Notes: generated from the sequence alone by a model not told the origin. A stretch of DNA of 64,000 bases from Schmidtea polychroa (GCA_044892525.1 CM097885.1:9426001-9490000), one strand, 5' to 3'. Positions 535 to 64,000 are shown, counted from the first letter of the stretch. Made by a program: numbers and translations.

Positions 535-3500
535 CAGGCCCGTACCGTCGGGGGGGGCCCAGGAGGGCCCGGTCCCCCCAAATAAAAAAACGGACATGAA
601 TAAAAAATGATGGTTTTACTTCAAGGTGAAAATGAAATAAACAATTACATTTATTCATGTACCATAAATGATCTAATAAGCACTATATAATGGGCCGAAT
701 CCTAAAGAAACCTTTTAATTAAAGTCGGAGCATCGTTTTAAATTTCACTAAATAAAAACTTTCTCGTATCCTAATTAACTGAGACTTAATCATTTTCTTA
801 AGTTAAAAAAGATTCTCTAACAAAACTTTCAATGGGTGGTGAGGTCTTTTAAATTAGTAAAGCAATGTTACATGTCGCGAAATTTCTCAGATGTGTACGG
901 AATTCAAACCCCGGAGTGTGTCTATAAATTTCCCCAAATCGTTAAAGGGTAGTGCTGGACAATTAAAATATTAGCCTCACAGGATTGCTTAACACCAAAT
1001 GTTAACAGCGCAACAATTGTCGATACCAAACGTTGTCGACAACAGTTGCTCTGATGTGAATCACTGCATTACATTCAATATGTTTGATAAAAGAAAAATT
1101 GCTATCGTGCACACATGCATTGACATGGGTGTGCATGAGTTGCACATGTAGAGGTTTATGTAGTATGGACGGGGGTAGGATGTTCCATCTATCTGCCTCA
1201 CTGGAAGAGACTGGCATGTGAAGTCGGTGGCGTGGGTAGGGTGCGTGCTGTCTGCTTTCCTGCCTCACAGGCAGTAACAACGCATGGAGGCATGATTGAG
1301 TGTCAGAGCACGGAGTGGGTGCATTGTGGTCTTTATACGATGGTAGAGAGATAGGCCAATGAGAGCACATCACATGTCATTATACTCAACTCACTCCTAT
1401 GGCAGAGTGACATGTTAATTGATCATATTTTGTAACATTATTTTCATCGTATTAGAACATGTCGACACAAAAGAGTATCATGAATTTCTTCCAAGTCATT
1501 CCAAAGAATTCTGTGACATCAGTCACTTCATCCAGTGATAGTATCTCTGCTACTATGTCCTCAACTTGTGCTAGTCCTTCATCTGTACCTGCTATTTCAT
1601 GTATCCGTGACAGTGCAGTGATGTCCTCATCTTCTTGTGCACCTGCTAAGACTCTGTCATCTACTAAATGTGATCTGGGTGAAGAAATGCCACGCCAGCC
1701 AACTGATGTAAATTTCCCAAAGACTTCGTTTGGTTCAAGGGAACGCTCATTTTTGTCTGTGTGGTATAATGGAAGACCATATTTGGAGTACTCTATTGAG
1801 AAAGATGCAGTCTTCTGCTTTTGCTGTAGAAAATTTTCATTGCCCGGCTCTGCTGGCGAAAGTGCTTTCAGAACAGGAGGATTCCGAAATTGGAAATCGG
1901 CTCTAGAAAAAGGTTTTCAAAAGCATGAATCTTCTGCTGGCCACATCCATGCCATGGAACGCTGGAAAGAGAAACAGCTGACATGTGAAAAAGGTGAGGA
2001 AGTTTGCACTTTGATTAATGAAACACAGCTGAAGAACAACCGTTATTATGTCAACGAAATCGTTGACGTTGTAAAGTTTCTTGTGACAAATGAATTAGCC
2101 TTTCGTGGTGACAGTTTCAGTAGAGACGATATTGATGAGGATGATAAGCTTCCGTGTGGTCTATTTTTACGTCTCTTCGAATACACTGTTAAGAAAAATC
2201 CTGAGCTGGCTCGTACCATTAAAACGATTCCCAAAATTGCCACGTACACATCACCTCGAATTCAAAATGAAATTATCGCGTTAATGGCATCAATAGTGCA
2301 AGAGTCAATTGTTAAGAAGTGCAAGTCTGCGGATGTTGAATATTTTACTCTGAAGGTGGATGGTACCAAAGATCGAACAGGGACTGAGAATGTGTCGATT
2401 GCCATAAGGTTTGTCTCAGCAGGACAACCTCAGGAGCACTTAATCTGCATTTCCCGAACAATTGCTCTCAATGCAGAGGCCTTCACAGATGTAATTTTGA
2501 CAACCTTGAAAGAGGCTCAGTTGGATCCTAAAAATATAATTTCCTAATGCTATGATGGAGCCGCTGTTATGTCTGGTCAGCATGGTGGGGTGCAGGCCTT
2601 GCTTCAGGAGCGTCTACAAATAGAAATTCCGTATGTCAATTGCTTCAACCACAAGTTGCATTTGGTTGTTGTGTGTGCCGTTTCTGAGTGCCAAAAACTG
2701 CGGGACTTCTTCGACATATGCAGAAACTTATACACATTTTTGTCATATCCTAAGGTTGCGGCCATATATCACAGCGATAAATTGACACGGCTCATGGAAC
2801 ATCGTTGGACAGGACACTTGCAGACGACTCAGGCAATAACAACTAATTATGATACAATTGTGAATTTGCTTGAGATGTGTTCTAGTAGACATTCTCACTT
2901 TTCAATTGATATTCAATTAGAAGCTACTGGACTCTTGCATCGAGTCAATGAAGTGGAGTTTCAGTTCATTGCACACATGGTGCTCTCATTGCTGACTATC
3001 CTTGAAACAGCCAACAATAGCTTGCAGGGTCAAGCAATGGACCTTTCTTCAGCATGTGATGTTATGGATGCCGTCATAGAGCGCATTCACAGCCTACGCA
3101 ATGAAGAGGAATTCCAAGTTCTTTTTGGGAAATTCGAAGGTCAAATGAATATGGAACAGACACCAAAAAGAAGAAGAACTCAGATGAACTCAAAATTAGA
3201 CAACTTCATTGTGTTCGGATCTGTGGGACAGCCAGAACACCAGGCCTTGCCTATCAGATGCGCATATCGCCAGATGTATTACGAAGTCGTTGATAGGACT
3301 CTGCAGGAACTAACAAAACGCTTCGGTGTCACCAACAGAAGCCTTTATAAGTCTCTTGCATGTTTGAAGACTGATCACGCAAACTTTTTGAATATTGAGG
3401 AGCTAAAGACTTTAGCGACACTGTGTGGCGTGGACCTAAGCGAAACCCAACATGAATTTGAAACTGCAAAGGTTTTCCTATTGAAGAGAGCCAGTACTGT

Positions 3501-4198
3501 GACAAACGTTCATCAGTTAGTGCAAGAACTGTACTCATACCGAGATGCTTTTCCATCTGTCTATCGTCTTGCAGCTTCTGCACTGACAATCGGTGCTTCA
3601 ACTGCCACATGTGAGGCGACTTTCAGTACTTTATCTCGTGTCTTAACTCCCTTTCGTACGTCGATGAGCCATTCTCGTAAAGCCAACCTTGTATTGCTCT
3701 CATTTGAAAGTGACATCAGTAATAACATCAAATCTGATGAGTTTCTTCGGCGGTTTCATGAAATGAAAAATCGTCGACTGCAGCTATTTTGAGTCATGTC
3801 GATATCTCACACACGTAATTTCTTTTTTCTGGATCTAGTTCCTGTGTAATTTCTATTGCACTCACCTTTAGTTTTCAAATCTGTGTGACTGTGTGTTCTG
3901 TCTTTGTATGTCCAATTGTCCGTCGTGCAAATACATGCAGCTATTTGTTTTTTGTGTTTGTTCCTAAAAAATGTGCGAAAATCATTTCCTATATACTAGT
4001 ATATACAATAATGTAACAAAATAATGCTCAGACAAAATGTCGATTTTGCTTTCCTTTTTTTTAAATTGAACATTTCGGAGTGCAAAGTGTGAGTAGTGAC
4101 TAGTCTGTTTTCATAAAATACTTAGTTTACACGAGAATTACTGGCCCCTTTAATGAGAGTCTGGGCCCCCCGTCAAAAGGTGTCACGGTACGGGGCTG
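535..4198 (+). mobile_element. Complete hAT DNA transposon (ZMYM1/TTF zinc-finger type)
   Basis: TIRs caggcccgtaccgt (535) and acggtacggggctg (ends 4198), 13/14 match. Perfect 8-bp TSD gttgttac at 527-534 and 4199-4206. Internal transposase; visibly more GC-rich than the flanks. Confidence 0.97.
1459..3792 (+). pseudogene. hAT transposase with a single in-frame nonsense codon
   Basis: ORFs 1459-2547 and 2569-3792 are in the same frame. TAA at 2545-2547 replaces the Q of the usual (Q)CYDGAAVMSG motif. Also has TTF zinc finger (FCFCCR..HESSAGH), DGTKD, CFNHKLHL, RW and CEATFS dimerisation motif. Confidence 0.93.
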
Positions 4199-8829: not shown

Positions 8830-24038
<15,209 letters not shown>

Positions 24039-25094
24039 TAAACTAAATGAAGCGCACCAATAGTTATATTAAATAGATTCAATAAAATCTCAGGTCAGGT
24101 GAAAAAAGTTTAAAAATTAGCGACTTTTTAATCAGTTATAATATATATGAATGACTTTTATGTATCTTTGAATGGATATCACATAAATGAGGTATGATTC
24201 CAGAAGGTATGAATCCAACTGGTCCATTCTGCCGACAGGGCAATACGAAATTTGTGCTAAGCCCTTAGTTATGATTTATATATAAAAAGGTTTTACATAG
24301 AATTGAAAAGGGGCTTTAAAACGCTTTTAAGACAATTTTACTATCGAAAACAAACATAGATCTAATATGGGAATAAATTGCAGAGAATCAAGGTTTGTTA
24401 ATCTCTAATGTCCACACAACGTTCGAATTTGTAAAGTTATTTGGAAGTCAAAATATGTAGTGAAAATTGATCCCTTTCAATAATTGAAGACGTTCGCATA
24501 AATGACTACGACATAACTAGATCATTAAGAAATCAAGATGATGTTGGATATATGGTGGTGGACTTTAAAGGGCTAATTGAAACAGCCTGATCTTTCACGT
24601 CAACTAAAAGGACAGCTTAAATAAATGATGAATCTAACTTACTAACCTTATAGTTTAGATACTGCAAAAAATGGTTACCATTTCTTTTGGTAATTACAGC
24701 ATTGCTCAAATCTTACGTCTTACACAAGAAAGGATTCGTTCTTTACTTTAAAGTTTCAAAAAAATTTCATTAGATTAAATTGTCTGTTGACTTGTAAAGT
24801 CTGCTAAATATTATAATACAAAAATGTTGTTAAAGTAATTGCAAATCCATGCATCAAAATGTTAGACGATAATAATCCAAGGGTTCATGCCATGGTTATA
24901 TATTTATTATTTATACAGTATTTTATCTTTGCACTTTTCACATACGAAATCATTAATAAGCGACTACTTACATGTTTTCAATATGTTGTGCTGTTTATAG
25001 GTGTTTGTTTCATTAATTAATTAATTAAATAAATAATAATAATTTTCGTTATTAATAATAAATTGAGTACGAATCAGTAAAGAAATGTTTTATG

Positions 25095-26334
25095 TTGATA
25101 TTCACAAATTTTCGGCACAGCCATTTTCAAATGATTACAATAATTATTTATTAATTTTAAGAATATGGAAAAGTGAAATTATGTGATGTCAAATTAACCT
25201 ACTTTCCGTGATTGATTGAGCTGAAATTTGACAAGTAGATTCGTTGTGAAGAACACTGCATGCTATCAAAATTTCAGACCGATTTGTTCACGGAAAGTGA
25301 GTTAATTAAAAAAAATATTGATATGCCAAATCTAGTGTTATTTCCTTGTTTTAATATAAATTCTTATCTATTCATTAACTTCGAATTAAAGAGATAACAT
25401 AATTATATCTAAAATATGTTGAAATTAAGAGAGTAAAATATTGAGAAAGTTTCAAAAATCATGTATTTTATGGTTGATTTTTTATTTAGTTGAACGATGG
25501 TGGATAGTTCGAATTTTTTTTTTCAATTAATTTTCACATCAAATATTTTATGGCTTCAGAAGAAAGTTAATTCTAGATTAAAGATTTGTTTTAATTTTCA
25601 AAAAATAGTGTTTAATTTTTCTCAATTTATTCTGGTAAAATGACGCAAAATTTGCAATTTTTCTATTAAAAAATAATCTCTTTCAAACACCCTTTTCAAA
25701 ATAAAAAGACTATTTTTGTCCTGTCTTAGAAACACTTATGTAATTGTTCACTAGAGCTGTTTCCAGTTTATTTTTATTCTTTCACACTATAGATCAGAGA
25801 TGGCGAACCTTTTACTGTTTGCGTGCCAATAAAAATTTATTTTTAAAAAATCAACCATAAAAACATGGTTTATGAAACTATATTTCACTCTTAATTTCAA
25901 TATATTTTAGATATAATTACGTTATCTCTTTAATCCGAAGTTAATGAATAGATAAGAATTTATATTGAAGCAAGGAAATAACATTAGAGTTGACATATCA
26001 ATATTTTTTAAATTAACTCACTTTCCGTGAACAAATCGATCTGAAATTTTGATAGCATGCAGTGTTTTAGACAACAAATCTACTTGACAAATTTCAGCTC
26101 AATCGATCACGGAAAGTAGGTTAATTGGACATCACAAAATTTGCGTGGCACATACATACAACCATCAGTGAAGTTAATATAGAGAGAATAAAAATTGCGC
26201 AAACATAAAACTTACAATTAATTTCATCCAATAAAATCAGTATAAAATTATTTTCACTTTCCATATTCTTAAAATCAATAAATAATGATCGTAATCACTT
26301 GAAAAAGGCTGTGCCGAAAATTTGTGAATATCAA
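25095..26334. repeat. Long inverted-repeat (foldback) structure
   Basis: 25095-25180 is the inverse of 26250-26334, and about 25184-25485 is the inverse of about 25845-26134. Confidence 0.85.
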
Positions 26335-28326
26335 AATAATACAAAGAGAGTAAATAATTTTTCAGGCCAAATTTCTTTTAACTCTATCAATAGTGTGAAC
26401 CTCTGAATACTATATCTACATATTATCACCCATTCATTACTGAGCAACTAATTAAAACAAATAAAGACTGAATTTTTCCCAAATATTTTTGTTAAATGAA
26501 TTCAAGAGCATTTGGAATGCAAACTTTAGAAATAAAAATGACAACATAAAATGCATTAAAATAAATCTTTTCTATTTCAAATTGTATATAATGAAATATT
26601 TTTATTTATTGGGGTGACCAAAAGGTCAAGTCGAATTTGTTTAGTACCTAGCATTTTTGCGTTTTCTAGTTTACACTTCAATAACTTTTAAAAAATGTAG
26701 TGTTACATAGAAGTAAAAAAAATTGACCTATTGTTGTAATGAAAATAAATGAAATGTTAAAAGAAAATAAAAATAAATTAAATGCATATAAAAAATAATG
26801 AAATTTATTGATAATAAAAGAGTTGAGAAATAATTAAAGAAACGTTCACTTTTGTTTAAATTTTCTTGAAATCATTGTTTGGGAAATGAATGGCATAAAA
26901 GTATACTTTCGAAAAGATGATTTTATAATTTCCGCAAAGAAAAAAAAAATTTACGCACATAGAAAGTGATGAACATGGTGATGGAGATGGTGTTGTAAAT
27001 GAATGAATTATTTAAAGGTGATTTGAAAAGTTAAGTGGGGAATTTTAGTTCTGTTCCTTTAACAATACTAGCCTATAATAAATTTTGAAATTAAAAAAAC
27101 CATACTGCTAGCGAGTAACTATTTTATTTTTTAAAAAGAAATTTCAACACAATAATTATAATGTATTTAATATTTAAAAAATAAAAGTATGTGTGTTTGT
27201 ATGTCCTGATATATAAACTTCAAATTATGGGTAAAATTTTTTTTTTTATTTTCAAAATTTTTATCCGAAAATACCGCATTTTAGACGATTTTAAAAATTT
27301 ATTATTTTTTCATTTTCTCTTTGTTGTCTCATTTTATTATTTTATCCTCTCGGTACGGTATATCTGAGTAGGGTAAGGTAAGGTGGGATTGTGATTTCTG
27401 TACAGAAAGGAAAAAAATAAAAGAAACTTTCATGTAATTATTTTTTTGTTAGTTTAACATTACTGTATGGGGCAGTTTGTAATATTTTTTAATCTTCGGG
27501 TAGCCCTGCTAGTTATTAATAATCATAAATTTTATTGCAATAAAATTTTTACTTTAATACTATAAAAATGATCAATATAAATAAGATTTAACATTCCCTA
27601 AAAATTTAATTAAGATTAAATTTATTGTAATATTCAATAAAATTTCTAATGGCACACTAGTTTCAAGACCATTTGGCTCATATTAGTGCCATGGAACAAT
27701 TCGATATCACAATATAGTGATAATGTTGATTTAGTTGCTTTAAAGATCTTTGGATTCGATATCTTGTACATTATGCAATGCAAACCAAATAATCTCAAAA
27801 CTAGTTTACTATTAGAAATTACACCGAATATCACAACATATATATTATTTTAACTAATTTAGTCGTTTTTCAACTGCTTAGTTCATATAAATTTAGCATT
27901 AAACATATCGTATGAGATTTCGCCCAGTGAAAATAAATAACTTTTAATTATTATTTATTAGAATTTTGGAAAGGCGAATCAGAGGAAATTTAACATAAAT
28001 TTTGAGTTTAATTAGATAATCAATCAGCATAGAAAAACAAACCGAATAAAATAAAATGTAATAATTTAATAAATACCAAAATCAGAATGCTCGGCATAAA
28101 AAAAATCAGAAAAATATATTTGAATTCACCGAATTCATTGATTTATTTAAGTGCATTTCTTTCTTAGTTAAAAACAGCGCAAAAAAATAATTCAAAAATC
28201 ATTTATATTTGTAAAAGCATGCTGACGTCATACTTGTAAATCACAATGGGCCTCAGATTTCTGTAGAAAAGTATTGATATTAATTAATAAATCACAATAA
28301 ATTTTCAAAAATAAATCAATCAAATG

Positions 28327-52291: not shown

Positions 52292-53437
52292 GTAAAATCT
52301 TATTAAATTTCTAGCATATTAACTATTAAAATATTTCTCTAAAACACAAACGGTCCTTTGAGGTTTTTCTAATCAATTTAAATGTATTTGTATATAATAA
52401 TAGTAGGATATGCCACCTCCAGGACACTATCCCCCTTCCTAGCGGGGAAAAATATTAAGCTAAAAAAATTTTTTTTAAAGTTAAAAATATGTAGGTAAAG
52501 TCAAATATTTTGAATTTTCACTATTTTTCCATGGTTTCTAGCGAAATTTTTCTACGTTTTTATGAAATTGGACTGATTTTATCGATTTTTTCACAAATAT
52601 TTCTAAGTTTTTAGGTAGGTCAACTTACTTTAAACATGTGTCACCTCCAGGACAATATATAAGATATGTAGGTCAACTCAAAATTAAGTAGGTCAAGTTA
52701 AAATTAAGTTGGCCAAGTTGAAATTAAGTAGTTCAGGTTAAAAATATGTAGTTCAAGTCAAATTTTTTGAATTTTCACTATTTTCTCATGGTTTTTCGTG
52801 AAATATTTTAAGTTTTTATGTAGATCAAGTTACTTTAAACATGTGTCACTTCCAGGATACTATATAAAATAAGTAGGTCACAACTATATTGTTTTTTAAA
52901 GAAGTAGGTCAGGACTATATAGTTTTTAAATAAGTAGGTCAAGTTTAAAATAAGTAGGTAGTATAATTATTATATAATTATATATAGTATAATTATAGTA
53001 TATAGAATATAGTATAATTATTATACAAGTCTATAGTTTAATTAAACATGTCATACACTCTAAATGGGTGTAGGAAAAGTGACTGTGTGCGTGTATGTGT
53101 GTAAAGGGCAATAGTTAAGAATAAAATTATAAATTCCTAATGAAACACATATAAATTAGATAAAATTTATCAAAATTATATGTTTTAAGGTTAAAAGTGT
53201 GTGTGTGCCTGTACAGAAAAATATTAATAAAGAGCAGTAATTAAGAGCATCACTCGAAAGTCTACATGGTAGTCATGCACTTGGATTGCACATGCCTTTG
53301 TTAATCATGCACATCTATTGCACAAGTCCTTGTTTAACACGCGCGTTTATGCTTAATGATAAAATAAATACATATTCAAGATTTATTGATTAGTACATGT
53401 ACAGTCTACATCTAACACCTTTTCATTATATTCTCAA

Positions 53438-53724
53438 CTACGTGATCAACGCAATCGTTAAAATCATTACACACATGTTGTTCGATTTGTGTAGATTCAT
53501 CTCAGATAAACCTTCTTCAGTAACTTGAGAATCTTCATGTATTCTTGAATCATCATCATCAGAAGAAACCAATTCTTGTTCTAATGTATCTGCAACTGTA
53601 ACTATATCTCTAACTTTTATACCGGTTAACTCCTCTAATTGTTGAAACAAAAAGTTTATTAAATATTCTAAATAAAATTAGTGTACATTAAACACTTATA
53701 TGTTATACCTTTTTCTGACGACAT
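53438..53724 (-). CDS. Small acidic orphan protein, probably spliced
   Basis: MSSEK|gtataa..tttag|EYLINFLFQQLEELTGIKVRDIV...; a roughly 41-bp intron joins in frame. Confidence 0.45.
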
Positions 53725-53772
53725 TTTAAACATTTTCAAATGAAATAAAATTTGTTTATATTTTACAATGTC

Positions 53773-53978
<206 letters not shown>

Positions 53979-54033
53979 TTATTTCAAAACAAACAAAGTC
54001 TGATCAAATACATTTATTTAACTACTACATTTA

Positions 54034-54480
54034 TTAAAATATTTGTGAAATTCGCGCAGTTTTTATTTTCCAAATAGGAGAAAACACATCATTCTGATCG
54101 ACTTTATAGCCTTGAATTGTAATTGTTAGAAACCAGCTTTCCTGTTCCTTAAAGCCTATTTCTGCAAAGGCGTCATAATATCTTGCATATCGCGCATTGA
54201 AGAAAGCGTTTTGATTGCATTTTAGATTTGAATCTATCTTATTGAAAACTTCATCTATAGCTTTAATATCTATCATTAAGAGAGTTCCAGCTAGAAATTG
54301 GAATTGAGTTTGGTCCAGTTTGACTGATTTTACCAATCTTCTTTAAAGAAATAAATTTTGTAATTGTGAAACATCTGAACCGGTTGCACGATTTCTTCAA
54401 CAGCTTTTACTTTTTCGGAGTTTGATACTTTCTTTGTAATTTTGATTAATGACAAAATAAGTTTGAACAATCCTTTTATA
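54034..54480 (-). pseudogene. Orphan element gene, frameshifted upstream of ORF 54034-54336
   Basis: 100-aa protein-like ORF; upstream open frame ends in a different phase near 54335. Confidence 0.45.
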
Positions 54481-54795
54481 CCTTCAAAACATATCGATTA
54501 ACCAATCAGATTAAAGTATACCTTTGTTTAAATTATGCCTTTGTTTAAATTGCATTTAGGTTGCACTTATGAAGCATATTGTTTTCTAACTTAAATTATG
54601 TTCGATTATTACTATTTTATTAGTCTTATTACTATTTATTTTTTCGATTAGTCTTATAACTATTTATTATTATTACTATTACTAGTTTTATTACTATTTA
54701 CTACAAAGACAAAACAAAACAATAAATAATTAAACATAAAGATTTATATCGAGACAATTCGACTGAAATGATAATTTCGAAGTCTTTACTAAAGA

Positions 54796-55185
54796 CTATT
54801 CAACATATCTTTGGTAGCGGAAATGACAACAACTGCATCCAATAAAGCAGGGGTATTCTGGTTCCACTTCCTTCATAGTTCTTCCGATCTTCACATCCCA
54901 GAGAAGGGTATTAATAATATCAAATATCCAGATTCTGGTTTCGTTGTAGATTAAGTCTGGAATTATTGCAGCATCTCGATCTTTCAGGATAGCATACATT
55001 TGTGGATAATAGAAATGTAATCTTTCAAGTATTATTGCCTGATATTCATCTGTAAATAATATTATAAATCCAAGTAAAAATAAAATTTAAATTTATCGTA
55101 ATGTTCCATTTCTTTCATAGCTGTTATAGCAGAGCTTTGAATATTGTACATTTTCAAAAACTGTTAATAAATGAAGAAACATCAT
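54796..55185 (-). CDS. Orphan element gene with C-terminal Cys cluster (PCFIGCSCCH)
   Basis: Open frame from acceptor tttacag near 55050 to the stop at 54796. The upstream putative exon has a non-GT donor (tacg|ataaat), so the gene may be damaged. Confidence 0.45.
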
Positions 55186-55278
55186 GTTTTAAACGATCAT
55201 CGGGAAATTAGATATCGACCAATCAGAATGATGCATTTCAATTGCACTGAATTTGCAATCACTTGATATTTTAAATAA

Positions 55279-55670
55279 TTAATTAAGTGATAATAAAAAA
55301 TCTAAAAATTCTTTTCCTTTAATTATTGATTTTATTTCAGATATGATATTATCAACTATACATGTGTAATCAATATTTTTAATTCCAACAATTACTATCT
55401 TACCACTAGCGAATATATTGACACACATAGGGTTATTTTTTGTATATCTCAAAGCTGAAAATAATTCTGGTTCGTAAACGCATGGTTTTACAAGCAAAAC
55501 CCATATCAGAAGTTACTGTTATCGATTGTATTTCTAAATCATAAACATTATAATCACTAGCTATGATTATTTCCTTACACTCCATAATTCTACATTTACC
55601 AGTTTTGAAATAAATTATGGGATATGCAAAATATTCATTCTTTTTATACTCGGTGCCTTTAACAATGTAT
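55279..55670 (-). pseudogene. Minimal intronless TATA-box-binding-protein (TBP)-like gene, frameshifted near 55497
   Basis: Repeat 1 end PIIYFKTGKCRIMECK; repeat 2 LEIQSITVTSDMGF / CVYEPELFSALRYTKNNPMCVNIFASGKIVIVGIK, compared with TBP YEPELFPGLIYRM..P..VLLIFVSGK.V.TGAK. Confidence 0.85.
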
Positions 55671-56696
55671 TAAAACCTTAATTTTCACTTGACCTACTTA
55701 TTTAAAAACTATATAGTCGTGACCTACATCTTTTTTTAATTAAACAATATAGTAGGTAGTTAGTGGCTTACGGCAGCAATAGGGGGGGGGGTAAAAAATG
55801 TTGCAAACTTTTGATTGCATAACTTTTTCCGTAGACATTTTTTGATTACATAATTGTTGCCGTAATGCCCAATGTTTTCTGGGATTTTAAATACAAATTT
55901 TTTTTTTTTTTTTTTTCAATAAACAAGCCAAGGATAAATATTATTTGGGTGGGTCTCCTTGGTCCTGAGAATTTCAATAGAAAAAGGTAGTCTTCAATAA
56001 AAAAGCATGGATTTTTCACACTATAGTGAGGGGATCTTCTTGGTCATGAGAATTTCAATAGAAAAGGTGGTTTACATTAAAAAAACGCATAGTAAATTTT
56101 TAAAATAAAGCAAATTATGGGTCTAAAATTTAAAAATAAAGTAAATGATGGGTCTAAAAATTTAAGTAAATCAAGGTTCAGATTTATTTTTGAAATAAAG
56201 TAAATTATGGTCTAAATAAGTAAATTATGGGCTAAGATTTTTCAATTAAAGTAAATAATGGTTCTAAAAAATTAAATTAAAGTAAATAATGGTCCAAATA
56301 TTTTAAATTACAGTAAATAATGGTTCTAAAAATTAAATTACAGTAAATAATGGTCAAAAATTTTAAAATTAAAGTAAATTATGGTTCTAAAAATTAAATT
56401 ACAGTAAATAATGGTCAAAAATTTTAAAATTAAAGTAAATTATGGTTCTAAAAATTAAATTAAAGTTAATTAAGGTCAAAAATTTTAAAATTAAAGTAAT
56501 AATTTTTAAATAAGTAAATTAAAGTAATGTAATAAGTAAATTAAAGTAAGATTTTTAAATTTATTAACAAAAATAGAAGGTGTTTGAGAATTGAAATTTT
56601 TTAATGGAAATTTTAATGAATTATTTTTTAAGTAATTTTTAATAGAAATTTTTATGAATAATTTTCAATGGTAATTTTTAATGGAAATTTTAATGA

Positions 56697-56746
<50 letters not shown>

Positions 56747-56933
56747 TAATATTAATAATATATCAACCAAATACTATACAACACATAAAAAATTAACTAA
56801 ACACATAAAAATAACTAGACACATAACAAAACATATAAACATTAACTAAACACATAAAAATGAACTAGACACATAACAAACATAAAAATTTACCAAATAA
56901 CAAATGTAAAGATATAAAATTTATTCAATAAAA

Positions 56934-59900
56934 TTAGTCCTCATCGGACAAAATAACGTCATCGATATCGATGTCATCTTCTCCAAAATCTTCATTTAAT
57001 TCTTCCTCATCTTCTCCATCATTTTCTCCAACATTTTCTGAAACATTTTCTGCAACAATTTCTCCAACATTTTCTCCAATATTTAATTCACTTAATCTTA
57101 CATGCCCATATGCAAGACTAGTATTTTTCCCCACCCAAACCCTTTTGTCATCTTTGTTAGTTAGTGCTATTTTTGTGTTTTTAATTGTAAAAATTTGATG
57201 ATTTTTGCTTGTTATTTTAGTCTGAGGAACCGAAAAAATCTGGTTAGTGTTATAACAATCCAGGTATGACTGATGTTTTATGTCACTACCTTTCAATGTT
57301 ACACCTTTAGCCTTTTTTGTTTCCTCATCACTCAACAAGCTATAACATTTAGGTCTAAGAAAAACCCACTCCTTATATTTAAGACCTTTATTCTCGTCTT
57401 TGAACTTTCCAATGACTGAATCAAGGTTCTTACTATATAAGGAATGACAACTATTGTAATTGGAAGTATCCAATAAATTATCTCGAACCATTGCAGGTAA
57501 AAGAACCTCAAGTTTGCAGTTAATGACTTCGAGGAAAAAAGAATCTGTATCACCTGCAACGATATTAATTTTACAATTAAACTCATTGCGAATTGATTCC
57601 AGATCCTTATATTGCAATTCATACATTCTAAGTTTAGATAGATCAAGTACAGATTGACCAATGTAACTCGGTCTATCTAAACATATAGAATCGGAATTCA
57701 ATAGTGCTGCAATTAAATTATCTGCTATTTTAATAGATTTTTTAAAAGTCGGTTTTGACGAATATTTAACTAATTTACCGGCAGTTGTACAAAGACGAAG
57801 ATTCATTCTTCTCTTTAAATTTTCAACTGTTTTGCCGTATAAACTATTATTTAGCAATTTATAATAATTTTTATCTAAGCTATTTACGCTTTTTGATCTT
57901 AATTCGGTATTTGTATCTATATATTTTTTAAAAATTGGTGATTGCTTAAATCTTACACCCCTATTTACACGTGTTACTTTAACACCAAGTTCCAAATATA
58001 ATTTTAATAATCTCCAATGAATAACATAATTAGATTTTGGAAGATGAGTTAATAATAATTTTTCAACCTTAGACCCAGCAGGTTTCATTTTTTCAGCAGC
58101 TACAGGGAAATCATCCAACTTATCATGAAGCTCAGAAGGAATTACAAGATCAACTTCAAGTGTGTATCCATAAGACAAAGATTCAAGATTTAAATTCCTA
58201 CATTCATCCATTATTTTATCAAATCCATCAAGAACCCAACAAAATTCGCCACAAGGTAATGATTGACTTAAAGCCCAGCCATAAAGATTATTAATATCTA
58301 TATATAGTAACTCAGTGTTCTCGTCGGTTTTTACGTAATGCTTATTCACAAAAGTAAGACCGCCTCTTATTCCACCCTCATAAAAGCTAAACATTTCGTT
58401 TTCAGTTATGAGTTCAATTGGTTCATTTAAAGACATTAATGCAGAAGACCAAGACATGCCTGGAATTCCGAAATAATTCAATGGTTCCAATCTATTGTGA
58501 GCAATGGATTTCAACCGAAACTGATGAAAGAAATCAGCCAAAAGAAAACAATCAAGTTTTAGGTAGATCATCATATAATCTAATAAAGTTACGCAATTAG
58601 TTTCTACCCAAATCTCCTGAGCTTTTTCATACTCAAGCTCAGTGACACCCTCCCAGATTGGTGGTAATTCATAAGTAGTTTGGAGAATATCTAAAAAAGT
58701 GGCGAAATTATAAGGGAAGATTCCTTTTTCACTTACTATGGTGCCAGAAAAAGCAGAATTAGTAAAAGGCAAAGAATTCAAAGTTTTGACTGCTTTAGCC
58801 AAAGAATCATTGACAAATTGATACGAATCAATGAATCTTAGGCTAATTTTACCTAAATGAGCAATCAAAGATATAAATTTTTCCGTAGTTATTGGGATGC
58901 ACCCTAAATTCCAATTTTTAAATTTATTTAATCCATATTTAAGTATATGGTGCATATCGTATCCCTTCAAGTTGTGAAATACGATAGGCAAAATTTTATT
59001 TATTTTTCTATTTACGTTACATGTGCTACAAGCTGCACCCAAGTATTTCCCCATTAAATGATCGTGATCTCTAACAGGATCCACGATAGATTTCAAACAA
59101 AGATAACAAACCGTTGAATTAATGAATTGTTGTTGCTCAATTTTCGTTAATTTAATCATTGGTTTCCTACCCATTTTATAATAAAAAGGAAGAACCTTAT
59201 TTAATGCTATATCCTCTATAGCACTTAAAAAACTCTCGACGCAATCTAAACCTATGAACTGCTGATAAGATTTAGATCCGTCAAAGTTATTTACTAGTAA
59301 AAGACCAGCAGATATTGGCATGTGTCGCTGAAAATGATCATTATCAGAAGGTAAAATAACCTCAAAATCGGCATAAACTACAAAAGGAGGAGTTACTGTT
59401 TTCGACCAGTCAGTAAACTGTAAGAATTTATTTTGAGGGAAAGTATAAAGAGTTGTTCCTAATTGATTACGTTTGCATAATATTTCATGTTTTTCTAGTG
59501 CGTTTCTATTATTAAACCCATTCAAACACCGATGGGACCATAATGAACGTATGCGTGTAGGACAAGTAGTGTTGATACCACAATTCAATAACCTATTTAA
59601 ATTGCTTATAGCAACGTAATGGAAATTGTTCCCTTTATTTAATAATAGTAAATTAATTACAGTTCCATTTAAAACTTTGGAACGATGTATAATGTCTAAA
59701 TGTGGGTGTTTTAAAACGTAATTATCTATTAATTGTTTGTTATTGTCATAAGAAAAAACGTTAATTATTAAACCAGGATTTTTGGCCTCGAATTTTCTAA
59801 TATCTTTTAATTTCATGGGTAAGTCCAATGGATTATATATTAATTCAGATAAATTATAACTGGATGTCCTATTTCTAGCATAACTACTAACCTCATCATA

Positions 59901-60713
59901 TTTTAAAATAGCTAAAATGCTATATAAAAAACATGAATCATCGGTGTTTTTTATATTAATTAAACAATATTTATTTTTTAGATAAGTAGGTAGTTCAATG
60001 AAACTCCTACCACTTAATCTACTTAGCCTACTTATCTTTGTTATGGTGAAGTGAATTTCTGTTATTTTTTTTATGATCCAGCTACTTCCTAACTCTGTGA
60101 TATTACTTATTTTCTCGTTTAGTTCCCTAATGCCTTCGTCAAAAAATGATGCAGTTAAAGGCTTTGCATAATTTGAGATATTATTAACCTTTATTTCCCC
60201 GTCTTTTTCAAATTCGATTGTTATTCCGAATTGAATTTTGACGGAGCCTAATTCGTTAATAATATCTCGTAATTTTTTTATTAGTTGTTCAGGAAATATT
60301 ATTTCTTTTATATTTAAGTCGCTTGTATTTAAGCTTAATATTTGATGGGTACCTCTTAGATCTTTTTGTATTATTGGAACATTTCCACCTATTTGTATTA
60401 TATTTAATCCATCCCAAGAGTCAAGGGAAATATTATCTAATCCGACCTGGGATTCAACAACCAATCCATCATGGGATTCGACAACCAATCCATCATTGGA
60501 TTCCACAAAAGGCAATCCGACCTGGGATTCAAAAGAAGAAGTATCTAATTTAATTTTTTTATTTTTATTATTTTTTTCTATAGTTGAGGGTCTTTTAAAA
60601 ACACTATCTTTTTTAAAATTAAACCTATCTAAATGATTTTTATGTTTATTATAAAAAACGCTATATGTTACGGGGTCACTAGTCTTACATACGGGACATA
60701 TTTTAAAACACAT
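56934..60713 (-). CDS. polB: Protein-primed family B DNA polymerase (Polinton/Maverick-type) with endonuclease-VII-like zinc insert
   Basis: Intact 1259 aa. ExoI VVYADFE, CYLC..VRDHDH..G...GAACSTCN, ExoII FHNLKGYD, FIDSYQF, KGIFPY, ExoIII YLKLD, GIRGG, YIDINNLYG, KLLNNSLYGK, GDTDS, RPKCY, KAKGV. Confidence 0.96.
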   Translation of the reverse strand: MCFKICPVCKTSDPVTYSVFYNKHKNHLDRFNFKKDSVFKRPSTIEKNNKNKKIKLDTSSFESQVGLPFVESNDGLVVESHDGLVVESQVGLDNISLDSWDGLNIIQIGGNVPIIQKDLRGTHQILSLNTSDLNIKEIIFPEQLIKKLRDIINELGSVKIQFGITIEFEKDGEIKVNNISNYAKPLTASFFDEGIRELNEKISNITELGSSWIIKKITEIHFTITKISRLSRLSGRSFIELPTYLKNKYCLINIKNTDDSCFLYSILAILKYDEVSSYARNRTSSYNLSELIYNPLDLPMKLKDIRKFEAKNPGLIINVFSYDNNKQLIDNYVLKHPHLDIIHRSKVLNGTVINLLLLNKGNNFHYVAISNLNRLLNCGINTTCPTRIRSLWSHRCLNGFNNRNALEKHEILCKRNQLGTTLYTFPQNKFLQFTDWSKTVTPPFVVYADFEVILPSDNDHFQRHMPISAGLLLVNNFDGSKSYQQFIGLDCVESFLSAIEDIALNKVLPFYYKMGRKPMIKLTKIEQQQFINSTVCYLCLKSIVDPVRDHDHLMGKYLGAACSTCNVNRKINKILPIVFHNLKGYDMHHILKYGLNKFKNWNLGCIPITTEKFISLIAHLGKISLRFIDSYQFVNDSLAKAVKTLNSLPFTNSAFSGTIVSEKGIFPYNFATFLDILQTTYELPPIWEGVTELEYEKAQEIWVETNCVTLLDYMMIYLKLDCFLLADFFHQFRLKSIAHNRLEPLNYFGIPGMSWSSALMSLNEPIELITENEMFSFYEGGIRGGLTFVNKHYVKTDENTELLYIDINNLYGWALSQSLPCGEFCWVLDGFDKIMDECRNLNLESLSYGYTLEVDLVIPSELHDKLDDFPVAAEKMKPAGSKVEKLLLTHLPKSNYVIHWRLLKLYLELGVKVTRVNRGVRFKQSPIFKKYIDTNTELRSKSVNSLDKNYYKLLNNSLYGKTVENLKRRMNLRLCTTAGKLVKYSSKPTFKKSIKIADNLIAALLNSDSICLDRPSYIGQSVLDLSKLRMYELQYKDLESIRNEFNCKINIVAGDTDSFFLEVINCKLEVLLPAMVRDNLLDTSNYNSCHSLYSKNLDSVIGKFKDENKGLKYKEWVFLRPKCYSLLSDEETKKAKGVTLKGSDIKHQSYLDCYNTNQIFSVPQTKITSKNHQIFTIKNTKIALTNKDDKRVWVGKNTSLAYGHVRLSELNIGENVGEIVAENVSENVGENDGEDEEELNEDFGEDDIDIDDVILSDED

Positions 60714-61152
60714 TTTGACGCTAAAGTTGACTTATTTAACATTTTCATAATAATTTAATAAAAATAATGTGATGAACCCACAAAGAAATATCATTTTTCA
60801 TCAAATTGCAAAACAGTAATAACGTTTTCATAAAATTGTAACAAAGTAATAACATATTTCAGATAAATTTTCAACAGTTGTAAAATATTTAAGCAAATTG
60901 TAACAAGATTAGAAAATATTACAACAAAGTAGTAACATATTTCAGAAAATTTCAACAAATTTGTAAAATATTTATCAAATTGTAACTAAAATAATAAAAA
61001 TATTGCAACAAAGTAATAAAATAATAATGGTAATTAAGACAAATCAATACATTATTTCGAAGACGGACAACAAATTAAAAAGAATATTGTAACTAAAATA
61101 ATAAAAATATTGCAACAAAGTAATAAAATAATACAACATTTTAAACTCTAGA

Positions 61153-61565
61153 TCAATCCATTTTATAGAAAATTAAATTTTATCTATATAATATATGAAT
61201 AAATATCCAAGGAAATTACGTTAACGTATAATAAATACAAATTTATCGTAAAAACATGTGTGTATTACACACAAAACAAGATACATAATTTCTAATCAAT
61301 CCATTTTATAGAAAATTAAATTTTATCTATATATTATATGAATAAAATCCTAAGAAAATTACGTTAACTGTATGAAAAATACAAATTTATCATAAAAACA
61401 TGTGTGTATTACACACAACATACGAGACATAATGTTTAATCAAGCTATTTTATAGAAAATTAAATTTTATCTATATAATATATGAATAAAAATCCAAGAA
61501 AATTACGTTAACCGCGCGAAAAACTACAAATTTATTGTAAAAACATGTGTGCATTACACACAAAG
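61153..61565. repeat. Three tandem units of about 141-146 bp upstream of polB
   Basis: ttttatagaaaattaaattttatctatat...attacgttaac...aaaaacatgtgtg(t/c)attacacacaa, three times. Confidence 0.9.
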
Positions 61566-61683
61566 CATCAAACTGAAATTGTAATTGCGCCATGTTGTAG
61601 AGAATTAAATTCTGCCTATACATTGTTACACTTAAATCTCGATCAGACATGTGAAAAGAGACATAAAAGAGAAAGAACAGTAG

Positions 61684-62229
61684 AGTAGTATGATTGGGGC
61701 CATCCAGGCCATGTCCCCTCCAGACCACATATACCCCCTCCCCCCCCCCCCGGGAAAAAAATTTTTTTTTTAAAATAAAAGGTCAAGGTCATTTTTTAAT
61801 TTAATTTTTTGTTTTAATTAAGTGATCATTTAATTTTTCAAGGTCATATTTTAAAATTTAAATGTACAGAGTTCCCGCCAACAAATATTATTAAACGATA
61901 CCTCATCTTAAAGCTCGGTCTAAGACCTTTCGATTGATCCATAGAAGGTATCATCATCATTAATATTAACAAAGTTATTAACATTTAACCAAAAATCATT
62001 TTCAAGGTCATATAATTATTAGTGATCCAGCGGTGACCTGGTTTTCGTTTGCCCCAAAGTTATCGTTCCCATTATCCGAATTTATTATTTGATAGCTTAT
62101 TTTGAAGCTTAGTGCAAGATCTATCTACTGATGTATAAATATTATTATTAACATTATTTTACACACGGGGGGGAGAGGGTATATGTGGCCTGGCGGTGAC
62201 CTGGTCTGGATGGCCCCAATCATACTACT
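61684..62229. mobile_element. Module C: 546-bp non-coding mini-element with AGTAGT...ACTACT termini
   Basis: agtagtatgattggggccatccag at 61684 and ctggatggccccaatcatactact ending at 62229 (24/24 match), extending as an imperfect TIR of about 65 bp; internal aaggtca repeats. Confidence 0.82.
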
Positions 62230-62714
62230 CTTTTATGTCTCTTTTCACATGTCTGATCGAGATTTAAGTGTAACAATGTATAGGCAGAATTTAATTCTCT
62301 ACAACATGGCGCAATTACAATTTCAGTTTGATGCTTTGTGTGTAATGCACACATGTTTTTACAATAAATTTGTAGTTTTTCGCGCGGTTAACGTAATTTT
62401 CTTGGATTTTTATTCATATATTATATAGATAAAATTTAATTTTCTATAAAATAGCTTGATTAAACATTATGTCTAGTATGTTGTGTGTAATACACACATG
62501 TTTTTATGATAAATTTGTATTTTTCATACAGTTAACGTAATTTTCTTAGGATTTTATTCATATAATATATAGATAAAATTTAATTTTCTATAAAATGGAT
62601 TGATTAGAAATTATGTATCTTGTTTTGTGTGTAATACACACATGTTTTTACGATAAATTTGTATTTATTATACGTTAACGTAATTTCCTTGGATATTTAT
62701 TCATATATTATATA
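62230..62714 (+). repeat. Inverted copy of 61185-61669
   Basis: Near-identical reverse complement. Confidence 0.95.
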
Positions 62715-62721
62715 TTAATAT

Positions 62722-64000
62722 ATTAATATAAAAAACACCGATGATTCATGTTTTTTATATAGCATTTTAGCTATTTTAAAATATGATGAGGTTAGTAGTT
62801 ATGCTAGAAATAGGACATCCAGTTATAATTTATCTGAATTAATATATAATCCATTGGACTTACCCATGAAATTAAAAGATATTAGAAAATTCGAGGCCAA
62901 AAATCCTGGTTTAATAATTAACGTTTTTTCTTATGACAATAACAAACAATTAATAGATAATTACGTTTTAAAACACCCACATTTAGACATTATACATCGT
63001 TCCAAAGTTTTAAATGGAACTGTAATTAATTTACTATTATTAAATAAAGGGAACAATTTCCATTACGTTGCTATAAGCAATTTAAATAGGTTATTGAATT
63101 GTGGTATCAACACTACTTGTCCTACACGCATACGTTCATTATGGTCCCATCGGTGTTTGAATGGGTTTAATAATAGAAACGCACTAGAAAAACATGAAAT
63201 ATTATGCAAACGTAATCAATTAGGAACAACTCTTTATACTTTCCCTCAAAATAAATTCTTACAGTTTACTGACTGGTCGAAAACAGTAACTCCTCCTTTT
63301 GTAGTTTATGCCGATTTTGAGGTTATTTTACCTTCTGATAATGATCATTTTCAGCGACACATGCCAATATCTGCTGGTCTTTTACTAGTAAATAACTTTG
63401 ACGGATCTAAATCTTATCAGCAGTTCATAGGTTTAGATTGCGTCGAGAGTTTTTTAAGTGCTATAGAGGATATAGCATTAAATAAGGTTCTTCCTTTTTA
63501 TTATAAAATGGGTAGGAAACCAATGATTAAATTAACGAAAATTGAGCAACAACAATTCATTAATTCAACGGTTTGTTATCTTTGTTTGAAATCTATCGTG
63601 GATCCTGTTAGAGATCACGATCATTTTATGGGGAAATACTTGGGTGCAGCTTGTAGCACATGTAACGTAAATAGAAAAATAAATAAAATTTTGCCTATCG
63701 TATTTCACAACTTGAAGGGATACGATATGCACCATATACTTAAATTTGGATTAAATAAATTTAAAAATTGGAATTTAGGGTGCATCCCAATAACTACGGA
63801 AAAATTTATATCTTTGATTGCTCATTTAGGTAAAATTAGCCTAAGATTCATTGATTCGTATCAATTTGTCAATGATTCTTTGGCTAAAGCAGTCAAAACT
63901 TTGAATTCTTTGCCTTTTACTAATTCTGCTTTTTCTGGCACCATAGTAAGTGAAAAAGGAATCTTCCCTTATAATTTCGCCACTTCTTTAGATATTCTCC
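62722..64000 (+). pseudogene. polB: Second, inverted polB copy lacking its 5' end (corresponds to 59960 downward; runs off the window)
   Basis: Reverse complement of about 58682-59960, starting at INIKNTDDSCFLYS. Substitutions seen: HLMG>HFMG, KYG>KFG, ATFL>ATSL. Confidence 0.93.

What the first reader, a model, noticed from the sequence alone, without database searches (positions are those of the whole stretch)
58682..64000. Large recent palindrome centred on a TIR-bounded mini-element
Seen: 62230-62714 mirrors 61669-61185 and 62722-64000 mirrors 59960-58682, with only a few substitutions. The inner part of the mini-element's own TIRs (to 61752 / from 62166) is clearly more diverged, and the left junction has 14 extra bases (agaaagaacagtag). 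So an older TIR pair sits at the axis of a much younger head-to-head duplication. Inference: TIR-mediated panhandle or template switching during strand-displacement replication gave a snap-back/dimer intermediate that was integrated.
Basis: partly seen in the sequence, partly recalled or inferred. Interest (0 to 1): 0.75.

Follow-up and report, generated by a model that had tools for sequence, protein, structure and literature searches.

The report
Mirror-image Polinton hinged on mini-Polinton
A virus-like jumping element (Polinton/Maverick) is stored here as two almost identical mirror-image halves joined through a 546-base miniature of its own ends, most likely a fold-back copy made while the element replicated, which gives a handle on how these elements copy themselves.

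Summary
Observation confirmed: the arms differ at 4 of 1,764 bases (no indels), the inner parts of the central TIRs are far more diverged, and the left junction has 14 extra bases. The arms are a Polinton/Maverick: the left carries an open 1,259-codon protein-primed DNA polymerase (pPolB) gene; the right lost its first 251 codons in a 1,224-bp deletion sealed by a templated insertion. The 546-bp centre has canonical (AGT)2 Polinton ends, homologous to a third end at 52402. The family is very high-copy and diverse in public runs, yet both arms share near-private alleles and each has its own derived changes, so they come from one template and then aged separately. Best reading (0.58): a snap-back defective Polinton of about 17.9 kb, made by template switching at internal end repeats during replication (adenovirus precedent), then integrated. 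Prediction: right end near 70,280 with a 6-bp TSD. No read spanning the junctions was obtained. The scan noted similar palindromic Polinton derivatives elsewhere in this genome (unchecked AI notes). New variant of a known kind; interest 0.55.

The parts
52402..52960 (+). Polinton-type end (AGTAG start, C-run, AGGTCA subterminal repeats); inferred outer end of the left arm
   Evidence: motif scan; aligns with the centre's left and right ends better than 300 of 300 shuffles each; that it is the arm's end is inference
54034..54342 (-). ORF homologous to an accessory gene of full-length relatives L006 and L013
   Evidence: tblastn E 1e-12 and 6e-7
55279..55669 (-). TBP-like gene, broken into two reading frames
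   Evidence: PF00352, E 1.8e-8, 3' piece; both pieces match the TBP-like genes of L006/L013
55677..55753 (-). inverted partial copy of the subterminal repeats 52883-52954
   Evidence: 77 bp, 84%
56934..60713 (-). open pPolB ORF, 1,259 aa, with an Endonuclease VII-like insertion
   Evidence: (PF03175 E 1.8e-17 and 6e-11 on two pieces; PF02945 E 0.0013, below its curated cut-off)
58682..59960 (-). left arm, outer block visible in mirror (continues leftward past what the window can pair)
59961..61184 (.). 1,224-bp segment present only in the left arm (pPolB codons 1-251, upstream 83-bp repeats)
61185..61669 (-). left arm, inner block (144-bp tandem repeats)
61670..61683 (+). 14 bases present only at the left junction, bounded by a 4-nt microhomology
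61684..61752 (+). left TIR of the central module (AGTAGT end facing inward)
61753..62165 (.). 413-bp asymmetric spacer (loop), non-coding, with AGGTCA motifs pointing inward from both ends
62166..62229 (-). right TIR of the central module (AGTAGT end facing inward)
62230..62714 (+). right arm, inner block
62715..62721 (+). 7-nt templated insertion at the deletion junction (8-nt direct duplication inside a perfect 20-nt palindrome 62711-62730)
62722..64000 (+). right arm, outer block: pPolB from codon 252 on, without its start; runs off the window

Best explanation
A real, integrated snap-back (palindromic) derivative of a high-copy Polinton/Maverick family. Shown: the arms are one Polinton copy (pPolB, TBP-like gene, accessory ORF; no capsid, ATPase or integrase gene found in the window) mirrored about a 546-bp module with two inward-facing AGTAGT ends. 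Inferred sequence of events: (1) a mini-Polinton made of two ends came to lie about 1 kb upstream of pPolB, giving the element an internal inverted repeat of about 65 bp; (2) during protein-primed strand-displacement replication the displaced single strand folded at this repeat, or two nascent strands recombined through it, and synthesis copied back over the same arm, so that both outer ends are the 52402-type end; the 14-nt offset is slippage or end-joining at the TIR tip; (3) the mirror genome, having two functional ends, was integrated by an integrase supplied in trans; (4) the cruciform-prone insert then lost 1,224 bp from the right arm by synthesis-dependent end joining and each arm gathered its own point changes. 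Expected length 17,879 bp (19.1 kb before the deletion).
For: Arms 99.77% alike although laid family contigs are mostly 90-99% alike to the window (table 1); P(4 or fewer differences) is 1e-4 at 1% divergence and 0.06 at 0.5%. At 59359 (unique coding sequence) and 61434 both arms share a letter that 99.6-100% of contig depth in 4 of 4 runs does not show: one template. The arm differences have both polarities: at 58696 the left arm departs from all 4 runs and from 15 of 15 relatives, at codon 553 the left and at codon 593 the right arm departs from the 13-of-15 majority. Ends match the (AGT)2 motif of Mavericks (PMC8097293 passage). The centre folds as a panhandle, z -7.2, 0 of 100 shuffles. 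The 52402 end is homologous to both TIRs. Relatives L006/L013 carry rve integrase, A32 ATPase, TBP and a double-jelly-roll-like gene beside the same pPolB clade. The centre is as deep as the pPolB gene in organism-A runs (median ratio 1.10, 0.59, 1.15). Junction with a templated repeat fits SD-MMEJ (PMC2943611 passages). Adenovirus precedent (PMC2518115 passage). Predicted length lies near the 16.9 +/- 1.7 kb of intact vertebrate Mavericks.
Against: No contig or read spanning the right axis junction or the deletion junction was seen; the right end and TSD lie outside the window. No TSD flanks the centre (0 hits for 5-8 nt), so its origin as a nested insertion is unproven; it may be the native pPolB-side end with an inverted copy inside it. 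The centre/pPolB depth ratio is 0.07 in the organism-B run X15, and a palindrome would predict about 0.5 rather than about 1; summed contig depth is no copy number. Site 61434 lies in a 144-bp repeat, so mis-laid repeat units may inflate that figure. 52402 reads AGTAGG, one base off the canonical motif, and 55677-55753 shows that the arm is itself rearranged, so 52402-61669 may not be one unit. In a junction this AT-rich a short templated repeat can arise by chance.
Confidence: 0.58

Rival explanations
1. Chromosomal fold-back at this locus: an ordinary defective Polinton (52402-62229) was already integrated; a break or stalled fork at its 62229 end folded back on the inner TIR and copied part of the arm, and the event was closed by end joining (short-inverted-repeat-primed palindrome, ODIRA-like, or aberrant transposition). 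The palindrome is then a one-off scar, not a mobile unit.
For: Both junctions look like host alternative end joining (4-nt microhomology, reached by 4.4% of 11,539 possible 14-nt deletions; templated 7-nt insert). 62229 has the orientation of a native pPolB-side end, and relative L005 begins with a C-run about 1 kb before its pPolB. Polinton TIRs cause chromosomal inversions and duplications in C. elegans (PMC11414722 passages). Shared private alleles fit equally well.
Against: Unchecked notes describe many TSD-flanked palindromic Polinton derivatives of 11-18 kb elsewhere in this genome; the predicted full mirror has Maverick size; a chromosomal fold-back needs a second, unseen junction.
Confidence: 0.2
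2. The palindrome is the family's normal replicative or packaged form: the 9.8-kb half from 52402 to 62229 has Polinton ends on both sides, and fold-back at the centre converts monomer to mirror dimer in every cycle (rolling-hairpin-like), which re-equalises the arms each time.
For: Centre about as abundant and as polymorphic as pPolB in organism A; arms identical at all 13 other family-variable sites displayed in the paired region while the inner TIRs stay diverged; one unchecked note says polymerase-carrying relatives are built the same way.
Against: Close relatives L006 and L013 are ordinary multi-gene Polintons with no long self-inverted match (short-read contigs would however collapse a palindrome); this copy lacks capsid, ATPase and integrase genes, so it is a derivative; no monomer or hairpin molecule was observed.
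Confidence: 0.15
3. Library or assembly artefact (fold-back chimeric read, amplification chimera, mis-joined repeat copies).
For: No spanning read was available; the family is extremely repetitive; none of the displayed joints in four runs shows the axis or deletion junction.
Against: Arm differences are 4 substitutions and no indel, with derived states on both arms and one arm agreeing with the family where the other does not; the axis is an asymmetric 546-bp module with exact Polinton ends; a 1,224-bp one-arm deletion has a templated insert; two unrelated copies mis-joined would not share near-private alleles.
Confidence: 0.07

Closest known systems
Polintons/Mavericks (polintoviruses), as defined in PMC8097293 and PMC4196379 (passages read)
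   Same: pPolB with endonuclease insertion; (AGT)2 end motif; predicted length about 17-19 kb; relatives with integrase, ATPase, capsid-like gene; racket-shaped single-stranded intermediate is the standing model
   Different: Mirrored arms of at least 1,764 bp seen (2,988 bp of left arm spanned), 9.3 kb predicted, against TIRs of 46-1,447 bp; pPolB lies inside the inverted repeat; a second pair of ends sits in the middle; no capsid, protease, ATPase or integrase gene found in the window
Adenovirus genomes rearranged through non-terminal inverted repeats (Steinwaerder, Carlson and Lieber 1999; seen only as a citing passage in PMC2518115; the product structure, one genome end duplicated in mirror around the repeat-flanked cassette, is recalled)
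   Same: Protein-primed strand-displacement replicon; internal inverted repeat pair; replication-dependent rearrangement through it
   Different: Engineered and episomal, repeats much longer (recalled); here natural, about 65-bp diverged repeats that are themselves element ends, and the product is in a chromosome
Snap-back defective genomes of AAV (PMC8235507, listing and start of abstract only) and copy-back/snap-back defective viral genomes generally
   Same: One end duplicated in mirror, helper-dependent, core genes lost
   Different: Different replication enzyme; kilobase arms with a 546-bp structured loop; integrated and heritable
Polinton-TIR-driven rearrangements at C. elegans eri-6/7 (PMC11414722, passages)
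   Same: Polinton TIRs as substrates for inversion and duplication; pPolB plus TIR remnants without integrase
   Different: There host genes are inverted between copies; here the element itself is mirrored
SD-MMEJ / polymerase theta end joining (PMC2943611, passages)
   Same: [quoted passage not shown]
   Different: Explains only the secondary deletion (and perhaps the 14-nt offset), not the arms

Membership tests
Polinton/Maverick | [quoted passage not shown] | tested here: met
   PF03175 hits, open 1,259-aa ORF with exonuclease and polymerase motifs; 50-61% identical relatives
Polinton/Maverick | (AGT)2 or (AG)3 end motif | tested here: met
   AGTAGT at 61684 (+) and 62229 (-); AGTAGG at 52402; motif definition
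Polinton/Maverick | retroviral-like integrase | tested here: not met
   no tblastn match in window 1-56899 to the ORFs (80 aa or more) of 34 related loci other than the TBP-like and one accessory gene; relatives L006, L013 have PF00665
Polinton/Maverick | packaging ATPase, protease, major and minor capsid genes | tested here: not met
   absent from the window; in relatives: PF04665, DJR-like by Atlas features 0.97 (Pfam scan gave no hit), Peptidase_C5 weak in 1 of 2 tested. A full mirror would not add them beyond 64000
Polinton/Maverick | TIRs of about 50-1,500 bp at the element ends | tested here: not met
   inverted repeat is at least 1,764 bp and includes pPolB; range
Polinton/Maverick | 6-bp target site duplication | not testable with these tools
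   right end lies beyond 64000 and no genome is held; none around the centre
Polinton/Maverick | TP and vOTU domains at the pPolB N-terminus | tested here: inconclusive
   no Pfam hit for residues 1-338; Atlas neighbours unnamed; invariant Cys261 and His365 fit a vOTU by the domain order in PMC11161782; no fold was run
Non-autonomous mini-Polinton (MITE-like) for the 546-bp centre | TIRs with the autonomous family's ends, no coding capacity | tested here: met
   no credible ORF
Non-autonomous mini-Polinton (MITE-like) for the 546-bp centre | own TSD and independent insertions | tested here: inconclusive
   no TSD here, expected if one flank was replaced; no other copy in the window; flanks of other copies not resolved
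Snap-back/copy-back defective genome | one genome end duplicated in mirror from one template | tested here: inconclusive
   one-template origin of the arms supported; duplication of the outer end not visible
Snap-back/copy-back defective genome | helper-dependent replication or packaging | not testable with these tools
   no experiment possible

The most novel reading that the evidence does not exclude
In this Polinton lineage an internal pair of element ends works as a fold-back hinge: the 9.8-kb half (52402-62229) and its capsid-sized mirror dimer interconvert during replication, so integrated palindromes are frozen replication intermediates of the long-postulated racket model, and the many gene-less palindromic satellites reported in this genome descend from pPolB-carrying palindromes like this one by loss of genes under a genome-length constraint.
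Probability: 0.2. Interest if true: 0.8.

Novelty: new variant of a known kind. Interest (0 to 1): 0.55.

Why it matters
The accepted model of Polinton replication (a folded single strand copied by pPolB) comes from sequence reasoning. A palindromic copy keeps a record of the copying: where arm identity stops (between TIR positions 24 and 25), whether arms share copy-specific alleles, whether the loop flips, and whether length is held near capsid size can all be read from genomes. This copy is useful because it still has the polymerase and shows a concrete hinge, a pair of the element's own ends. I found no paper describing palindromic or snap-back Polintons in searches (listings; passages of the papers named); the library lacks most subscription journals and Repbase entries, and no supplements were read.

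Tried and rejected
Laying contigs of 4 of 17 runs (X14, X15, X16, X1) on 56900-62262: none of the 15 displayed joints (of 122), 12 displayed junction inserts (of 102) or 24 displayed loose ends (of 1,937) shows the deletion junction or lies at either end of the centre; the lists are cut and contigs drop rare forms, so this proves nothing either way. None of the four runs looks like the assembled individual (several displayed sites differ in 96-100% of depth in all four). X15 depth hints are contradictory: window-type contigs give about 66-79 over the left-only segment and 24-35 over the spacer (2:1, as for two full arms), while a second type gives 51.7 at both; not used. Viral-contig scans for pPolB relatives and for the TIR tip: nothing. 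Site 59295, first noted as private in my notebook, is not (65-99% other) and was dropped. 55751 as a further Polinton end: no better than shuffles against 52402 (109 of 300) or the right TIR (251 of 300), marginal against the left TIR (7 of 300); rejected. Selection test: 3 of 3 coding differences between arms are non-synonymous, probability 0.51 under neutrality; uninformative. Two independent insertions head to head: rejected by the shared near-private alleles. Polarity of the 14-nt offset (loss on the right or templated gain on the left) could not be decided. PMC3185507 and PMC13027316 gave only reference-list entries; PMC6431247 has no occurrence of 'palindrom'; PMC4689423 (ODIRA) seen in a listing only. 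Searches were for precedents; one found no usable paper on palindromic linear plasmids. Earlier-finding look-ups by near place, sequence and relatives were empty.

Full report
Observation. A self-comparison of the 64-kb window (27% GC) gives the two mirrored blocks as its strongest matches. Base by base, 62230-62714 pairs with 61669-61185 with 1 substitution in 485 bp and 62722-64000 pairs with 59960-58682 with 3 in 1,279 bp, with no indel: 0.23% (0.06-0.58%). Between the arms lies a 546-bp module, 61684-62229, whose ends are identical for 24 bp and then differ at positions 25, 29, 33, 36 and 41 and by a 2-nt indel, far more than the arms' rate allows (P about 1e-7). The left junction has 14 extra bases bounded by AGAG; 4 or more bases of microhomology occur at 4.4% of 11,539 possible 14-nt deletions in this region. 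In addition, 1,224 bp (59961-61184) are missing from the right arm and replaced by 7 nt that duplicate the adjacent 8-mer ATTAATAT inside a perfect 20-nt palindrome.

What the arms are. The left arm carries an open ORF of 1,259 codons (56934-60713, minus). Pfam gave no hit for the whole protein but PF03175 on two pieces (E 1.8e-17, 6e-11) and a sub-threshold Endonuclease VII hit: a protein-primed DNA polymerase. Its best relatives are unnamed metagenome proteins at 50-61%, and the nearest named ones are arthropod proteins at about 33%. Of 34 related loci, the two longest, L006 and L013, are multi-gene Polintons with rve integrase, A32-type ATPase and a TBP-like gene and a gene whose Atlas neighbours are double-jelly-roll proteins (0.97; Pfam found nothing for it). 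In the window only pPolB, a TBP-like gene broken into two frames (55279-55669) and one accessory ORF (54034-54342) match these loci; no integrase, ATPase or capsid gene was found. The right arm starts at pPolB codon 252 and so lacks the start and the region where the terminal-protein domain lies in other Polintons (domain order from PMC11161782 passages; not tested by fold). All genes point away from the axis. The host is eukaryotic, probably an animal (inference from hAT ORFs, microsatellites, and the homologues).

What the centre is. Both ends begin with AGTAGT, the (AGT)2 motif given for Mavericks (PMC8097293 passage), and face inward. A third end of the same build starts at 52402; it aligns with the left TIR region (score 51, best of 300 shuffles 40) and the right one (38.5, best 35) and shares AGGTCA subterminal repeats with the spacer. 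As a single strand the module closes into a panhandle (z -7.2, 0 of 100 shuffles). It has no TSD and no second copy in the window. It is either a mini-Polinton inserted about 1 kb upstream of pPolB or the native pPolB-side end with an inverted copy inside it; relative L005 begins with a C-run about 1 kb before its pPolB, which fits the second view for the 62229 end. I could not decide this.

Population data. Seventeen runs hold part of 56900-62229; four, all contig sets, were laid on 56900-62262. In organism A the family is very abundant and diverse (41,548 contigs laid in X14, of which 15,084 at 99% or more, 16,832 at 95-99%, 9,632 at 90-95%), with many internal deletions. Of 227 variant sites 40 were displayed, 14 in the paired region; the arms agree at 13. 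At 59359, in unique coding sequence, and at 61434, in a repeat and so weaker, both arms share a letter that 99.6-100% of the depth in all four runs does not show: the arms come from one template, not from two family members. At 58696 the left arm departs from all four runs and from 15 of 15 relatives while the right arm agrees; at codon 553 the left and at codon 593 the right arm departs from a 13-of-15 majority. Derived changes on both arms, all substitutions, argue for a real structure that has aged a little since the arms were last equal. The spacer is about as deep as pPolB in X14, X16 and X1 (median ratios 1.10, 0.59, 1.15) but not in the organism-B run X15 (0.07); summed contig depth is no copy number, so this only suggests that the centre is a common part of the family. 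The junctions themselves were not seen in the displayed rows.

Mechanism. The standing model has an extrachromosomal single-stranded Polinton folding into a racket and being copied by pPolB (PMC4196379 passage). [quoted passage not shown] The same geometry explains this locus: fold-back or recombination at the 65-bp internal repeat copies the arm back, leaving the spacer as loop; the switch must lie outside TIR position 25; the 14-nt offset is slippage or end joining at the tip; both outer ends are then the 52402 type, so a helper integrase can insert the product. If so the element is 17,879 bp long and ends near 70,280 before AATAAT, close to the 16.9 +/- 1.7 kb of intact vertebrate Mavericks but with arms far beyond their 46-1,447-bp TIRs. 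The right-arm deletion has the repeat signature of synthesis-dependent end joining (PMC2943611 passages), though short repeats are common in such AT-rich DNA. Shown: arm identity, one-template origin, Polinton ends at the axis, the deletion. Inferred: extrachromosomal origin, integration as a unit, the outer boundary. I give this 0.58, a one-off chromosomal fold-back 0.20 (Polinton TIRs do rearrange chromosomes: PMC11414722 passages), a regular monomer-dimer cycle 0.15 and an artefact 0.07.

Earlier notes. Before looking I favoured a local duplication. Unchecked AI notes on this genome describe gene-less palindromic elements of 10.9-17.7 kb with Polinton ends and TSDs, one saying that polymerase-carrying relatives are built alike. 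They moved me to treat 52402 as the outer end and the palindrome as a mobile unit; I tested only the homology of that end and the abundance of the centre, and the notes are not counted as evidence.

Verdict. Real in the sequence, probably real in the chromosome; a defective derivative of a Polinton, not a complete member (integrase, capsid module and short TIRs fail). Palindromic Polintons did not appear in my literature searches, with the limits of that library; the mechanism has clear precedents in other viruses. New variant of a known kind, interest 0.55; 0.8 if the hinge proves to be a regular step of replication (probability 0.2).

Noticed in passing
window 55279-55669 (-); L006 11333-11779; L013 10321-10764: TBP-like gene (PF00352) in this Polinton lineage, intact in the two relatives, in two frames here; one search found no paper on it for animal Polintons; earlier notes report it repeatedly.
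   Followed up: partly
window about 14333-14410 (+): A more diverged relic of the 52402-type Polinton end (78% over 51 bp, E 1e-4), with no partner end found.
   Followed up: no
window 25086-26343: A separate foldback/MITE-like element with about 90% identical arms (25176-25484 vs 25844-26142; 25086-25181 vs 26249-26343); related short matches near 14169-14257.
   Followed up: no
window 55737-55761 and 59958-59997: The non-coding junction at 55750 shares a 15-nt exact match plus a nearby 11-nt match with pPolB coding sequence right at the deletion breakpoint 59960; may be chance in AT-rich DNA or a preferred break site.
   Followed up: partly
window 56934-60713: The open pPolB carries several changes nearly private to this copy, some at positions conserved in relatives, as expected for a copy no longer under selection.
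   Followed up: partly
runs X14, X16, X1 versus X15: The window-like subfamily occurs in organism B as long contigs with 0-2 differences at low depth, and in organism A in a huge diverse cloud; near-identity across two labelled organisms could mean recent transfer, close kinship or mislabelling.
   Followed up: no
window 1459-3792 (+): hAT transposase in two ORFs (DUF4371, hAT dimerisation).
   Followed up: no
L006 13480-13974 (+); L012 2926-3511 (-): Relatives carry extra host-like genes: a ubiquitin-conjugating-enzyme-like ORF in L006 and dual-specificity-phosphatase-like ORFs in L012 (resemblance recalled from the printed sequences, not scanned).
   Followed up: no
L004 1-1516: A relative begins with a C-run and short repeats followed directly by only the 3' half of pPolB, another 5'-truncated derivative.
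   Followed up: no
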